A stretch of DNA of 64,000 bases. Source: a phage. Below are positions 6,846-40,641 of this stretch, one piece after another. The notes under the pieces are model-generated. The model worked only from the letters and a program-made list of their open reading frames with translations. It did no database searches and had not been told where the DNA came from. Made by a program: the position numbers and the translations under genes. The stretch is from sequence record PZ179883.1; one strand, given 5' to 3'. Positions within the stretch are counted from its first letter, which is position 1. Each line of letters starts with the position of its first letter.

Positions 6846-7052
6846 TCATAGTTGCCACCATTTTTTGACTTGATAGGAATCAACCCACACTTTCATATTA
6901 GGGTCTGCTCTTACAATAGGAGGATTAACTTCTTTAATTGAACTATCATGGTATTCTTTTTCAGAAATTTTCACACAAAGATGACCATTTAAAGATTCAG
7001 TAAATCCTGCATTAATTTTAAGACGCTTGAATTTTACGTGTGTAAGCATCAA
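6846..7052 (-). CDS. hypothetical protein (68 aa)
   Basis: Track ORF in minus array. Confidence 0.4.
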   Translation of the reverse strand: MMLTHVKFKRLKINAGFTESLNGHLCVKISEKEYHDSSIKEVNPPIVRADPNMKVWVDSYQVKKWWQL

Positions 7053-7335
7053 TCATATCCTCAATCTGCGATCTAGTAGTCTTCCAAAGAATACTGATGA
7101 GTTCATCGTTATATGGCTGTTTCAGAATATCCCGACTTTTCTTGATAGCATATTCGTATTGAGCAAAATTATTGTTTTCAGCTGCGATCTGAGCGTGCTT
7201 ATAAAGACGATTCAGTTCGCGTTTGTTTTTAGACAATAACTTATTTGCTTTTCTTTCTGCTTCAAGACGGTTCTTTTCTTCAATAGAAGAAATAAGCTTT
7301 TCCACTTCATCATTAATTTCGGGTTTATCAGTCAT
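7018..7335 (-). CDS. hypothetical helical/charged protein (105 aa)
   Basis: Track ORF; Lys/Glu-rich helical composition. Confidence 0.45.
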   Translation of the reverse strand: MTDKPEINDEVEKLISSIEEKNRLEAERKANKLLSKNKRELNRLYKHAQIAAENNNFAQYEYAIKKSRDILKQPYNDELISILWKTTRSQIEDMIDAYTRKIQAS

Positions 7336-7336
7336 A

Positions 7337-7555
7337 TTATTTCTCTAATATAAAATAAAAATCATCATCTGTTAAATGATACCGATAGTTTAATTCTACA
7401 CCATTAGATTTAAAAGCGGTATCATACGGATTTTCTGGGTCAATATCAATGTCAAGAGCTAAAACTTCCCTGAGATACATTTTAAGTAAATAGGGAATAG
7501 CTTCAACTTCAGGTATTTCTTCCAAGAATCCGGAGAGGTTAATCGTTAGCCTCAT
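7337..7555 (-). CDS. hypothetical protein (72 aa)
   Basis: Track ORF immediately downstream of gp55. Confidence 0.45.
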
Positions 7556-36897: not shown

Positions 36898-37020
36898 AGT
36901 TTTGTGAAAAAATTTTTAGGGAATTCTAGGGCAGGGATGGGCAATTAAAGGATAGGATAATATATTATAAAGGGTATAAACTAAATGATGCCTAGAGAGG
37001 TCCAGAAAGGCCTAGATACC

Positions 37021-37046
37021 AAAAAGCCCTATCATTTAGATAGGGA
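37021..37046 (-). terminator. intrinsic terminator after internal-protein-like gene 37054-37617
   Basis: CCCUAUC-UAAAU-GAUAGGG followed by CUUUUUGG. Confidence 0.55.
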
Positions 37047-37053
37047 TTTAAAA

Positions 37054-37617
37054 TTATTTACCTAGTTTACTTATTATAGCTTCTGCAGCAGCTTTTAGCT
37101 TAGATGCAGTGTTAATACGATTTTTAATTTCAGTATACGCATCGCCAAGAACATCAAGGCTATCAGAATAAACACTTACACTATTGCGTTCGCTATTTGA
37201 AATAGAACCTTTAGTTTTGCGGTCAAAATCGGTGTACACGTCTTGAAGATCGCGGGCTGCCTTCTTTGCATCATCCAATGCATCAAGAGCTTTATTCAAA
37301 GCATTAACGTATTTTTTAGTGTCGAACATATTCTTAGAAATTTTAACAGGTGCGCGTTCAGGAGTAGCTAACACAGATTTAGGAACCTGAGCGCCAGATG
37401 CCAATTTCTTAGAAATTTTGAAAAATGCTTTATTGAATTTATTTTCTTGACTCATTGTAAAAGAACTATTATCGATGTTGTACATTTCAATAGCTTTAGC
37501 TTTCCACTTAAGAAAATCGCCGCGGTCTTTTGGGTCCAATTGGAAGAATACTTTAGTAAGATCTGCTTCAGATGGTAATTTTGCTGCTTCGGTTAAAAAT
37601 TCGGCATAGGTTTTCAT
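37054..37617 (-). CDS. internal-protein-like gene with capsid targeting sequence (187 aa)
   Basis: N-terminus MKTYAEFLTE; Ala/Lys-rich body; terminator hairpin after stop. Confidence 0.6.
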   Translation of the reverse strand: MKTYAEFLTEAAKLPSEADLTKVFFQLDPKDRGDFLKWKAKAIEMYNIDNSSFTMSQENKFNKAFFKISKKLASGAQVPKSVLATPERAPVKISKNMFDTKKYVNALNKALDALDDAKKAARDLQDVYTDFDRKTKGSISNSERNSVSVYSDSLDVLGDAYTEIKNRINTASKLKAAAEAIISKLGK

Positions 37618-37706
37618 TTAAAATCCTTGAAATAATTTATCGGTTGGTTATTAATTATTTATTACTTTGTTACTATCCGTAACAGCGTTATCCGAGTGAT
37701 TCAAAC

Positions 37707-37735
37707 TAAAAAGCCCCAACCTTTCGGTCGGGGCT
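37707..37735 (-). terminator. intrinsic terminator, copy 1 of a 31-nt identical element
   Basis: Minus-strand GCCCCGACC-GAAA-GGUUGGGGC followed by UUUUUAG; identical to 38262-38291. Confidence 0.7.
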
Positions 37736-37742
37736 AAGAATG

Positions 37743-38216
37743 TCATTTGATTTGTTTAGCAGACCAAATGCGGTCTTTAATAATTTTTTGGATGTCTTCA
37801 ACATACTCAAGAGAGTGAACATGTGGATTATCTTTGAAACTATAAGCACGGGCTAACTTTTGGCCTTCGGTTTTGATTACTAAAAGCTCTTTAAGGATAG
37901 CTTCATATTTAGCGATAATTCCTTTAACGATATTTTTTTCTTGTGCCGCTTTAGGATCTGCTTTAGGAGCAGGTTTACCCGAAGCCTTTGCAAAAGCAGC
38001 GCCAGTAGCAACTAAACTTTTCCAGGCCATACTAACTGCATTTCCCGTAAATCCTTCCGCTTTCATGTCGCGTGCAAACTGGAATCGCGATTCATCAGAA
38101 GCATCTTTATAGGAATATTTACCCGCGGCAATGGCAGCTTTTGCAACAGCTTGAATTTCGGTGCTAGATGCTTCATTTAACACCGCTTCATTTAAAAATT
38201 GAGTATATGATTTCAT
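37743..38216 (-). CDS. internal-protein-like gene with capsid targeting sequence (157 aa)
   Basis: ATG 38214-38216 with AGGAAA RBS gives MKSYTQFLNEAVLNEAS; track N-terminal extension overlaps the terminator. Confidence 0.6.
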   Translation of the reverse strand: MKSYTQFLNEAVLNEASSTEIQAVAKAAIAAGKYSYKDASDESRFQFARDMKAEGFTGNAVSMAWKSLVATGAAFAKASGKPAPKADPKAAQEKNIVKGIIAKYEAILKELLVIKTEGQKLARAYSFKDNPHVHSLEYVEDIQKIIKDRIWSAKQIK

Positions 38217-38253: not shown

Positions 38254-38261
38254 ATATTTAT
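38254..38261 (-). promoter_or_regulatory. late promoter box TATAAATA upstream of internal-protein-like gene
   Basis: Minus-strand TATAAATA abutting terminator 38262-38291 and 38 nt upstream of ATG 38216. Confidence 0.5.
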
Positions 38262-38291
38262 ACCAAAAAGCCCCAACCTTTCGGTCGGGGC
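38262..38291 (-). terminator. intrinsic terminator, copy 2 of the 31-nt element
   Basis: Same hairpin plus U tract, at the downstream edge of the tRNA/small RNA region. Confidence 0.7.
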
Positions 38292-38342
38292 TAAGCCTTG
38301 CGGCAACCTTGTCGGGGTTCCACCTGCTAAGGCAAGTGTTTG

Positions 38343-38434
38343 TACGAAACGCCGGGATTCGAACCCGGTTATTAAGTAGTTGACGCTACTCAATATTTTT
38401 AAAAGGCCATATCTCGACCATATCCGAACGTTCC
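38343..38434 (-). ncRNA. tRNA-like small RNA candidate (perfect T-arm, 7 bp acceptor-like helix, non-canonical core)
   Basis: CCGGG-TTCGAAT-CCCGG T-arm at 38351-38367; 38344-38350 pairs with 38428-38434 (one G-U); no canonical anticodon arm; lies between CDS 38600-38950 and a terminator. Confidence 0.35.
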
Positions 38435-38599
38435 GTCAAAAACGCTACTCGGCTTACGGCAAAGATATTTCCTCGAATCGATAATTCGGTGCGCCGTTTC
38501 TGCTGTGATAGTAAAGAGCCAGAACACAGTAAAACTGTGGGAGGAAACTATACTCCAGGGAACATCAGTCCGACGACTTACCGGTAGCGACCCGGTTTC

Positions 38600-38950
38600 T
38601 TAATATTCTTTTAAAGAATCAATATATTCACGGCGTTTACGCCACAAATCAATTGCTTCATACGCGGATTCAGCATTTCGAATTAGCCGGCATTTATGTA
38701 AAGACTTATGATTTTGATATTGTGTAGATAACGGAATTGTATCTAAAAGGTCTTTACGATCAAAATATTCGTAACCATCTAAACCAAATGAACGATTTTT
38801 GAGAAATTGCCAATGACCATATTCGTTTTCGACATAAACATAATCTGCATGCTGATAAAGCAAATTAATTACACGTTCAGAAATAACAGTATCATTATGA
38901 TTAAAATAGAATGTTAAATCATGAACTACTAAATAAACATTACCTTTCAT
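38600..38950 (-). CDS. hypothetical protein (116 aa) embedded in tRNA/small RNA region
   Basis: ATG 38948-38950 with GAGGAAAA RBS, 17 nt downstream of tRNA-Arg. Confidence 0.55.
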   Translation of the reverse strand: MKGNVYLVVHDLTFYFNHNDTVISERVINLLYQHADYVYVENEYGHWQFLKNRSFGLDGYEYFDRKDLLDTIPLSTQYQNHKSLHKCRLIRNAESAYEAIDLWRKRREYIDSLKEY

Positions 38951-38966
38951 ATTTTCCTCACTTAAT

Positions 38967-39042
38967 TGGTCGAGGCAGTAGGGATCGAACCTACGACCTA
39001 GGACTTAGAAGGTCCTTGCTCTTCCTTCTGAGCTATGCCCCG
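38967..39042 (-). tRNA. tRNA-Arg (anticodon TCT), CCA encoded
   Basis: Manual fold: 7 bp acceptor, T-loop TTCGATC, anticodon loop CTTCTAA. Confidence 0.85.
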
Positions 39043-39046
39043 TAAT

Positions 39047-39128
39047 TGGGGTGACCGATGGGAGTCGAACCCATGACTACGAGAATCACAATCACAATCT
39101 CGAGTTCTACCAACTGAACTACGGCCAC
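39047..39128 (-). tRNA. tRNA-His-like (GTG) with 13-nt anticodon loop; possible pseudo-tRNA
   Basis: Acceptor, D-arm, T-arm and discriminator C resemble tRNA-His; anticodon stem CGAGA/TCTCG encloses TTGTGATTGTGAT. Confidence 0.55.
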
Positions 39129-39922: not shown

Positions 39923-40531
39923 TTATTTATTACGTGAAAAAGATTGTTCTATCAATTCTGGACACTTTCGTTCTATCCATTTTCTAGCTTTTTGTGGGCT
40001 TATACCTATTATTTTAGCAGCTTTACTAACCCATCCAAATTTAGAATAATCGATTTTAACTAATTCTTCGTAAATTTCATCAGTTAAAATCTTTTCATTA
40101 ATATTTACCAGTAAATGATATAATTTATTATCATTAGCAATTTTAATGAATCTTTTATAGTTTCCGCCTTTACTTAAACCTAATGAAGTAATTGCAGATG
40201 ATATAGTAGCCGAATTTAATAATGCGTTTAAAATTTCTTCATCACTAACATTATAACGCTTTTTATTATTTTTAATATTTTTACCAGCAAAAGTATCAGT
40301 TTGCGAATGGCAATTTGGACATAATAATCTTAAATTTGATTTAAGATGATTTTTGTTATTTCCATCAATATGGTCTAATTGCAGAACAATATGCTTATTT
40401 TGCCATTTTGAAATTTTACAAATTGCACACTCATATGGAAAAATATTTTCTTTTATTATTTTGTCTTTCAGCTTTCCTGTACTAAAATTTGGATGTTTTC
40501 CTTCAAAAATTTCAGCTAATTTAGTATCCAT
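39923..40531 (-). CDS. HNH homing endonuclease-like protein
   Basis: HNH motif LQLDHIDGNNKNH...LLCPNCHSQTD; 202 aa from ATG 40529-40531 (track start 40555 is TTG); stop abuts tRNA-Leu. Confidence 0.7.
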   Translation of the reverse strand: MDTKLAEIFEGKHPNFSTGKLKDKIIKENIFPYECAICKISKWQNKHIVLQLDHIDGNNKNHLKSNLRLLCPNCHSQTDTFAGKNIKNNKKRYNVSDEEILNALLNSATISSAITSLGLSKGGNYKRFIKIANDNKLYHLLVNINEKILTDEIYEELVKIDYSKFGWVSKAAKIIGISPQKARKWIERKCPELIEQSFSRNK

Positions 40532-40641
40532 AATATAATTCCCAATTATTAACAAAGGCTCTCTAACAAGAACCCTTGATGATAGAGGGTATTAATCAGT
40601 GCGATATGAGTTAATAATAACAAATAATTCTTAAAGCATAT

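What the first reader, a model, noticed from the sequence alone, without database searches (positions are those of the whole stretch)
38600..38950. Protein-coding gene wedged between tRNA-Arg and the small RNA region
A 116 aa ORF starts 17 nt after tRNA-Arg with a strong GAGGAAAA RBS. A CDS inside a tRNA/stable-RNA operon would be co-transcribed with and processed out of the tRNA precursor, which is an unusual expression context.
Basis: seen in the sequence. Interest (0 to 1): 0.35.

Follow-up and report, generated by a model that had tools for sequence, protein, structure and literature searches.

The report
Conserved small gene inside phage tRNA operon
This is a real but already catalogued 116-residue gene of unknown function that many T4-like phages (though not T4 itself) carry between their last tRNA gene and two small stable RNA genes, and protein genes embedded in tRNA clusters are normal for this phage group.

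Summary
A 116-aa ATG ORF lies on the minus strand at 38950..38600. It starts 16 nt after tRNA-Arg(UCU), behind GAGGAAAAT, and its TAA stop abuts the homologue of T4 species 2 RNA (rnaD), which is followed by rnaC and a terminator. It is a true gene: dN/dS is 0.12-0.20, codon usage resembles its neighbours, and the 13-nt ribosome-binding region is invariant between two genera. Full-length relatives occur in 426 phage genomes (family phrog_3355), all Tevenvirinae. There is no Pfam, NCBIfam, PADLOC or PDB match by sequence or fold, so function is unknown. T4 and T6 lack it; there a segB + tRNA-Arg cassette abuts rnaD. The T2L ORF called trna.2 in a 2008 paper is almost certainly this gene, and T4 SegB homing eliminated it from T4 x T2L progeny. 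It has no promoter of its own. The nearest good promoter match is a MotA-type middle promoter 1.65 kb upstream, so co-transcription with the tRNAs is very likely. That context is not unusual for these phages (T4 segB, T2 trna.1, the HNH gene in this window). My best guess is a dispensable accessory protein made from the tRNA precursor transcript. Low interest; already known.

The parts
38600..38950 (-). 116-aa CDS (family phrog_3355; T2 homologue annotated 'similar to RB69ORF150c; RB51ORF141'; most likely the T2L 'trna.2' ORF of PMC2330249)
38951..38966 (-). 16-nt spacer with the Shine-Dalgarno sequence (GAGG at 38959..38956). AAGTGAGGAAAAT is invariant in T2 and in Mosigvirus HX01.
   Evidence: the fold shows only weak AU pairing over the initiation region
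38967..39042 (-). tRNA-Arg(UCU) with encoded CCA, immediately upstream of the CDS
38488..38603 (-). Homologue of T4 species 2 RNA (rnaD). By position, its T4-annotated 5' end falls on the last base of codon 116 plus the TAA stop. The 5' hairpin ACCGG-GTCGCTA-CCGGT starts 4 nt after the stop.
38343..38481 (-). Homologue of T4 species 1 RNA (rnaC), 99% identical to T4
38269..38292 (-). Intrinsic terminator hairpin (followed by a T run) that closes the tRNA/ORF/rnaD/rnaC unit. A late-promoter-like TATAAATA follows at 38262..38255.
40614..40640 (-). Perfect match to the MotA-box middle-promoter pattern, at the same place as in T4 and D5505 upstream of the tRNA cluster. It is the inferred promoter of the unit.
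   Evidence: T4 middle promoter described in PMC2330249
39047..39916 (-). Eight intact tRNA genes (Leu, Gly, Pro, Ser, Thr, Met, Tyr, Asn) plus a variant tRNA-His, between the promoter and tRNA-Arg

Best explanation
The ORF is a conserved, dispensable accessory gene of T-even-type phages (subfamily Tevenvirinae) that lies inside the tRNA/stable-RNA operon. It is most likely transcribed from the MotA-dependent middle promoter (and earlier promoters) upstream of the tRNA cluster. The resulting ~2.3-kb precursor would run HNH ORF, tRNAs, tRNA-Arg, ORF, rnaD, rnaC, terminator. The ORF is translated from its own strong, unstructured Shine-Dalgarno site. This could happen on the nascent precursor, or on the fragment released when tRNA-Arg is cut at its 3' end. 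The stop codon abuts rnaD and, if the T4 5' end applies, lies inside it. Maturation of rnaD would then clip the message at or within the stop codon, so translation and RNA processing would compete and expression would be short-lived. A similar control has been proposed for T4 segB. The product is a ~13.8-kDa (own estimate; not computed), near-neutral, aromatic-rich protein with an N-terminal beta-beta-alpha-beta-beta unit and a long C-terminal helix carrying a WRKRRE patch. It has no enzymatic signature. My best guess is a binder of a host or RNA partner that modulates infection (host take-over or counter-defence), not an enzyme. Shown here: gene reality, conservation, position and junction anatomy. 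Inferred: co-transcription, processing sites and protein role.
For: Coding: dN/dS is 0.20 vs T2 and 0.12 vs Mosigvirus HX01, with dS near saturation. Identity by codon position vs HX01 over the first 56 codons is 45/56, 51/56 and 31/56. Codon usage is like the neighbours. Distribution: 426 phage records hold a full-length match, from 100% down to 32% identity. The PHROG match has E 8e-53. An HMM search of 1.84 billion proteins gave 8 hits, the four shortest being fragments and one a 650-aa repetitive protein that matches only over ~30-residue stretches. BFVD fold hits are only uncharacterised proteins of T4-like phages. Operon: the ORF sits 16 nt after tRNA-Arg and its stop abuts rnaD. Both junctions are kept in HX01, including the SD block and a compensatory A-T to G-C change in the rnaD hairpin. 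No strong promoter lies near the ORF, and the only good terminators follow rnaC. The middle-promoter match is at 40614-40640. T4 precedent for transcription through the whole cluster: PMC2330249. Dispensability: the gene is absent from T4 and T6. T4 x T2L progery lacking the T2L trna.2 ORF made up 99.6% of plaques (PMC2330249). Position inside or at the end of tRNA clusters holds in five genera.
Against: There is no direct evidence of transcription, processing or translation for this gene in any phage. The rnaD 5' end is transferred from the T4 annotation, where rnaD follows tRNA-Arg by 1 nt, and may differ here. The protein role is a guess. There is no homology to any characterised protein, and the model is only moderately confident (pLDDT 75, with residues 54-90 poor). 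Equating this ORF with T2L 'trna.2' rests on the paper's text (two ORFs, region between tRNA-Ser and the species RNA genes) plus the T2 GenBank map. I did not see the paper's figure or sequence.
Confidence: 0.6

Rival explanations
1. The protein works on the neighbouring RNAs. It would be a tRNA, rnaD or rnaC binding, processing or protecting factor, for example shielding phage tRNAs from host anticodon nucleases or inhibiting such a nuclease. Its place in the tRNA cluster would then reflect function.
For: Homologues lie inside or at the end of tRNA clusters in Tequatro-, Mosig-, Winkler-, Mosuguk- and Kagamiyamavirus. The C-terminal helix has a basic patch, and polar residues H34, D36, N42, H46, K51, R53 and R107 are conserved. 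Phage tRNA clusters are known counter-defence loci (PMC13096335).
Against: T4 and T6 process and use their tRNAs, rnaC and rnaD without it. Overall pI is about 6.3, which is not that of a typical RNA binder. In the distant genera rnaC lies elsewhere, not next to the gene. Gene order is broadly conserved in these phages anyway, so position alone is weak evidence.
Confidence: 0.2
2. It is a selfish or mobile gene, such as a minimal nuclease or homing-type element that inserted exactly between tRNA-Arg and rnaD.
For: The tRNA region is a hotspot for homing endonuclease genes, such as segB in T4/T6 and the HNH gene here. Presence or absence differs among close relatives. One GenBank record labels the homologue 'endonuclease' (H48).
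Against: No GIY-YIG, HNH, LAGLIDADG or PD-(D/E)XK signal appears in Pfam, NCBIfam or fold searches. Divergence tracks phage genera (82-100% in Tequatrovirus, ~67% in Mosigvirus, 28-38% in other genera) with a conserved position, which indicates vertical descent. Its absence in T4/T6 coincides with a foreign segB + different tRNA-Arg cassette, and in crosses it is the loser of homing, not the driver (PMC2330249).
Confidence: 0.05
3. The ORF is not translated, and the conserved sequence is part of the RNA precursor (a spacer or structured RNA).
For: It lies between stable RNA genes, and no experimental translation data exist.
Against: Third-position-biased substitution, low dN/dS, a conserved reading frame and length across genera with saturated dS, and a conserved SD. 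There is no Rfam hit and no unusual folding energy.
Confidence: 0.03

Closest known systems
T2 / T2L ORF downstream of tRNA-Arg (GenBank MH751506 AYD82733.1 'similar to RB69ORF150c; RB51ORF141'; probably the 'T2L trna.2 ORF' of Brok-Volchanskaya et al. 2008, PMC2330249)
   Same: Same gene: 94.8% identical protein, the same 16-18-nt spacer after tRNA-Arg, and the same TAA|GAAACCGGG junction with rnaD. Described as an ORF of unknown function lying in the T2L segment that T4 SegB homing replaces.
   Different: Nothing of substance. The window's phage also has tRNA-His and Thr, lacks the trna.1 ORF, and has an HNH gene in place of tRNA-Gln.
[quoted passage not shown]
   Same: A protein gene embedded in the tRNA/species RNA transcription unit, on the same strand, without its own promoter. 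Its 3' end is within a few nt of the next stable RNA's 5' end, so precursor processing is thought to clip the mRNA near the stop codon (PMC2330249).
   Different: Unrelated protein, with no nuclease motifs here. The segB initiation region is predicted to be sequestered in a stable hairpin, whereas this ORF's is open. segB is mobile, while this ORF behaves as a vertically inherited resident that segB displaces.
Homing endonuclease ORFs F-TflI/II/III in the phage T5 tRNA cluster (as cited in PMC2330249)
   Same: CDSs inside a phage tRNA gene cluster, for which expression limited by precursor processing has been proposed.
   Different: Different phage family and different (nuclease) proteins. Not examined here.
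Pfam DUF2654 (a member is encoded in this window at 7021..7344, minus strand)
   Same: A 27-residue local resemblance (INLLYQHADY..NEYGHW vs LNRLYKHAQI..NNNFAQY). Both are small T4-like phage proteins of unknown function.
   Different: All hits are below Pfam's cut-off (at most 18 bits vs 25), and hhalign probability is 15%. This is not evidence of homology.

Membership tests
phrog_3355 (phage protein family of unknown function) | Full-length significant match to the family HMM | tested here: met
   E 7.9e-53, residues 1-115 on profile positions 1-116 of 117. All 10 aligned relatives match it.
Protein genes embedded in T-even tRNA operons (segB-type context) | Lies between stable-RNA genes on the same strand, inside the span bounded by the cluster promoter and the terminator after rnaC | tested here: met
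   tRNA-Arg is 16 nt upstream and rnaD abuts the stop. The terminator is at 38292-38269 and the middle-promoter match at 40614-40640.
Protein genes embedded in T-even tRNA operons (segB-type context) | No promoter of its own | tested here: met
   The consensus scans give no sigma-70, MotA-box or late-promoter match in or just upstream of the spacer. The one MotA-like match inside the ORF is not conserved. A sequence scan cannot exclude weak promoters.
Protein genes embedded in T-even tRNA operons (segB-type context) | Actually co-transcribed with, and cut out of, the tRNA precursor | not testable with these tools
   Needs RNA-seq or end mapping of infected cells. Inferred from T4 data quoted in PMC2330249.
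Homing endonucleases (GIY-YIG / HNH / LAGLIDADG) | Recognisable catalytic domain | tested here: not met
   No Pfam, NCBIfam or PDB sequence hit and no PDB fold hit.
Homing endonucleases (GIY-YIG / HNH / LAGLIDADG) | Sporadic distribution and preferential inheritance | tested here: not met
   Divergence follows genera at a fixed position. In T4 x T2L crosses the ORF is excluded, not favoured (PMC2330249).
Known anti-defence / defence protein families (PADLOC-DB) | HMM match | tested here: not met
   0 families at E up to 10. PADLOC holds defence rather than anti-defence proteins, so this says little about an anti-defence role.
Pfam DUF2654 | Score above the gathering threshold (25 bits) | tested here: not met
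   Best 18.2 bits, local only; hhalign probability 15%.

The most novel reading that the evidence does not exclude
The tight tRNA-Arg / SD-ORF / rnaD packing, conserved across two genera, could be a processing-coupled expression switch. The cut that creates the 5' end of rnaD would remove the ORF's stop codon. The protein could then be made only from unprocessed precursor, and processed messages would become non-stop substrates. The protein itself might act on the phage tRNA/small-RNA system or against a host tRNA-targeting defence.
Probability: 0.12. Interest if true: 0.5.

Novelty: already known. Interest (0 to 1): 0.15.

Why it matters
It matters little as a discovery. The gene is annotated as a hypothetical protein in hundreds of T-even-type genomes. 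Its location was almost certainly reported for T2L in 2008, and CDSs inside phage tRNA clusters are familiar. What remains open is its function. The family is restricted to Tevenvirinae, is under clear purifying selection, has no detectable fold relatives in the PDB, and stays associated with the tRNA cluster, a locus now linked to counter-defence. It is also a natural marker of the allele that the SegB cassette displaces. A deletion or complementation test in T2 or RB69 against tRNA-targeting defence systems would be cheap and could give a function to one more of the many unknown T-even accessory genes.

Tried and rejected
(1) Sequence searches found nothing usable. Pfam, NCBIfam and PADLOC gave nothing for the protein. 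PDB profile searches gave only noise, the best being a cGMP-kinase fragment at E 0.013.

(2) I made two AlphaFold models (pLDDT 65 and 75). Foldseek against the PDB gave no hit with E <= 0.001. BFVD returned only uncharacterised T4-like phage proteins.

(3) The word-indexed search of 5.8 billion proteins gave 7 hits. The exhaustive HMM search of 1.84 billion representatives gave 8. There are no cellular homologues; the one 650-aa hit is a low-complexity repeat protein.

(4) The DUF2654 resemblance was followed to a paralogue candidate at 7021..7344 and rejected.

(5) A MotA-box-like match inside the ORF (38838-38864), which might have driven rnaD/rnaC, is not conserved in T2 or HX01 and was rejected.

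(6) A terminator-like hairpin inside the ORF's 3' end (38649-38626) has a poor T tract, and the region's folding energy is no better than shuffles.

(7) My early idea that relatives carry an extra 500-bp copy downstream was a BLAST artefact of the repeated terminator.

(8) Literature searches for 'RB69ORF150c' and 'phrog 3355' found nothing. All database names for the protein are 'hypothetical protein'.

Full report
**What the window is.** The region is 99% identical to Escherichia phages Pinarejo, YUEEL01 and HP3, and matches 918 phage records, mostly Tequatrovirus. The window is therefore a T4-like (T-even type) phage genome segment. Its genes here run on the minus strand.

**Checking the observation.** The ORF listing gives an ATG ORF at 38600..38950 (-), 116 aa. 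ARAGORN and Rfam place tRNA-Arg(UCU) at 38967..39042 (-).
- Read on the minus strand, the junction is ...CCTCGACCA|ATTAAGTGAGGAAAAT|ATGAAAGGT.... The spacer is 16 nt, and GAGG lies 5 nt from the ATG.
- Downstream, the TAA stop (38602-38600) is followed at once by GAAACCGGGTCGCTACCGG.... This aligns with T4 species 2 RNA (rnaD). Next come species 1 RNA (rnaC, 99% identical to T4), a strong terminator at 38292-38269, and a late-promoter-like TATAAATA.

**Is it a gene?** Yes.
- At this base composition an open run of 116 codons has probability about 1.9e-4.
- The codon-usage log-odds score is 0.32 bit/codon in frame, against -0.33 to -1.6 in the other five frames. The window's long ORFs average 0.37 +/- 0.06.
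- tblastn finds full-length matches in 426 phage records. Identity is 82-100% in Tequatrovirus (T2 94.8%), 66-70% in Mosigvirus, 38% in Serratia phage LC53 and 32% in Pectobacterium phage PM2.
- Nei-Gojobori dN/dS is 0.20 against T2 and 0.12 against HX01, where dS is already about 1.8.
- Over the first 56 codons, identity to HX01 by codon position is 45/56, 51/56 and 31/56.
- The block AAGTGAGGAAAAT in front of the ATG is identical in the window, T2 and HX01 despite saturated synonymous sites. This argues that the translation signal itself is under selection.
- The initiation region has only weak AU pairing.

**What is the protein?** I could not assign a function.
- It is a full-length member of phrog_3355, 'unknown function' (E 8e-53).
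- Pfam, NCBIfam and PADLOC give nothing. PDB sequence searches give noise.
- The word-indexed search of 5.8 billion proteins returned 7 relatives. An exhaustive HMM search of 1.84 billion representatives returned 8. Apart from one 650-aa low-complexity repeat protein, these are phage-type proteins of 112-122 aa or fragments.
- Every name given by a source is 'hypothetical protein'.
- With a 10-sequence alignment, AlphaFold gives pLDDT 75 and pTM 0.68. The model has beta-beta-alpha-beta-beta (residues 3-52), a poorly modelled middle, and a long C-terminal helix (93-115) with a WRKRRE patch.
- Foldseek finds nothing in the PDB. In BFVD it finds only uncharacterised proteins of T4-like phages: Serratia X20, EcS1, KPV15, Cronus, SP18 and Vibrio nt-1.
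- Conserved polar residues are H34, D36, N42, H46, K51, R53, D67 and R107. The pI is about 6.3 and 16% of residues are aromatic.
- A local resemblance to DUF2654, of which the window encodes a true member at 7021..7344, is below threshold and not significant.

**Comparison with T4 and the literature.**
- T4 lacks the gene. Its tRNA-Arg is a quite different sequence from the one here and is followed after 1 nt by rnaD. Immediately upstream of it lies segB, a GIY-YIG homing endonuclease gene inside the tRNA cluster. T6 has the same arrangement.
- About 101 records carry the segB-3'/tRNA-Arg/rnaD junction, against 426 with the ORF. The ORF-bearing arrangement is the common one.
- T2 carries the ORF, annotated 'similar to RB69ORF150c; RB51ORF141', plus another CDS (trna.1) between tRNA-Ser and tRNA-Met.
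- Brok-Volchanskaya et al. 2008 (PMC2330249) sequenced the T2L tRNA region. They reported 'two ORFs of unknown function', trna.1 and trna.2, together with four extra tRNA genes.
- They showed that SegB homing replaces the T2L segment between tRNA-Ser and the species RNA genes. Only 0.4% of T4 x T2L progeny kept these ORFs.
- From the map, their trna.2 is almost certainly this ORF. I could not see their figure, so this identification is an inference.
- The paper also states that segB is transcribed mainly from the middle promoter just upstream of the cluster, as part of a ~1.75-kb precursor of the eight tRNAs and the species I and II RNAs. It proposes that precursor processing near the segB stop codon limits expression, and mentions similar ORFs in the T5 tRNA cluster.

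**Operon anatomy in this window.**
- A perfect match to the MotA-box middle-promoter pattern lies at 40614-40640 (-). This is exactly the sequence conserved with T4 and D5505 upstream of the cluster.
- From there the minus strand carries, in order: an HNH endonuclease ORF (40531..39923) that replaces all but about 9 nt of tRNA-Gln; tRNAs Leu, Gly, Pro, Ser, Thr, Met, Tyr, Asn; a variant tRNA-His; tRNA-Arg; the ORF; rnaD; rnaC; and the terminator.
- No credible promoter lies near the ORF. A MotA-like match inside it is not conserved. No terminator precedes rnaC.
- Co-transcription with the tRNAs is therefore the most economical reading. It remains an inference from sequence plus T4 precedent.

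**A detail worth recording.** By alignment with T4 rnaD (5'-AUGAGAAACCGG...), the equivalent 5' end here is 5'-UUAAGAAACCGG.... That is the last base of codon 116 plus the stop codon.
- The same TAA|GAA(A/G)CCGGGTCGCTACCGG(T/C) junction is kept in Mosigvirus HX01, with a compensatory A-T to G-C change in the hairpin stem that follows.
- If the processing site is conserved, maturation of rnaD would leave the ORF message without a stop codon. Translation would then have to occur on unprocessed precursor. This parallels the idea published for segB. It is untested.

**Position in other genera.** Homologues sit after the last tRNAs or among them in Winklervirus (LC53, Gravdalen), Mosugukvirus (PM2) and Kagamiyamavirus (EcS1). 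They are often within about 1 kb of a gp30.3/DUF1768-type gene, and many other small CDSs are interleaved with the tRNAs. In those genera the rnaC homologue lies elsewhere. The association with the tRNA cluster is old, but it could reflect synteny alone.

**Interpretation.**
- Best supported (confidence about 0.6 for the package): a vertically inherited, dispensable accessory gene expressed from the tRNA-operon transcript. Its product is a small non-enzymatic binder involved in host interaction.
- Rivals: an RNA- or tRNA-related role (0.2), a selfish nuclease (0.05), and not translated (0.03).
The gene itself is catalogued in hundreds of genomes.
- I therefore rate it already known and of low interest. 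The remaining open question is what the protein does.

Noticed in passing
window 39047-39128 (-): The tRNA that ARAGORN could not type is tRNA-His(GUG) with a 6-nt tandem duplication (GATTGT GATTGT). This widens the anticodon loop from 7 to 13 nt. D5505 and Pinarejo have the normal 76-nt gene. It is either a disabled tRNA or a sequencing variant.
   Followed up: partly
window 39923-40531 (-), with the tRNA-Gln remnant at about 40532-40545: A 202-aa HNH-type endonuclease ORF (Pfam HNH below threshold, E 0.005) replaces all but the first ~9 nt of tRNA-Gln, just downstream of the tRNA-cluster middle promoter. The same insertion is present in 64 phage records at 95% identity or more. It is a second protein gene inside this tRNA operon, and it costs the phage a tRNA.
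   Followed up: partly
window 37699-37738 and 38256-38295; ORFs 37743..38216 (-) and 37054..37617 (-): Near-identical terminator hairpins (93% over 40 nt) flank a 157-aa ORF. A weaker third copy lies at 37012-37051. The 157-aa and 187-aa ORFs share only the N-terminus MK(S/T)Y..FL.EA. From my own knowledge this resembles the capsid-targeting sequence of T4 internal proteins, suggesting a cassette array of late-expressed internal-protein genes. TATAAATA lies at 38255-38262.
   Followed up: partly
window 38576-38595 (-) vs L005 (HX01) 2846-2868: The 5' hairpin of the rnaD homologue (ACCGG-GTCGCTA-CCGGT) shows a compensatory A-T to G-C change in Mosigvirus HX01. The middle of rnaD is much more diverged from T4 than rnaC is (79% vs 99%). 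A 2025 paper (PMC12685909) reports a convergent adaptive SNP in rnaD of a T4-like phage.
   Followed up: no
L006, L007, L008, L009 (Winkler-, Mosuguk-, Kagamiyama-, Moonvirus): In the distant genera the homologue lies within about 1 kb of a gp30.3 / DUF1768-type gene and several 55-85-aa ORFs. This is a recurrent small-gene neighbourhood in or beside the tRNA cluster. tRNAs were not checked in the Moonvirus locus L009.
   Followed up: no
window 7021-7344 (-): Encodes a clear DUF2654 protein (E 7e-43), another T4-like phage family of unknown function.
   Followed up: no
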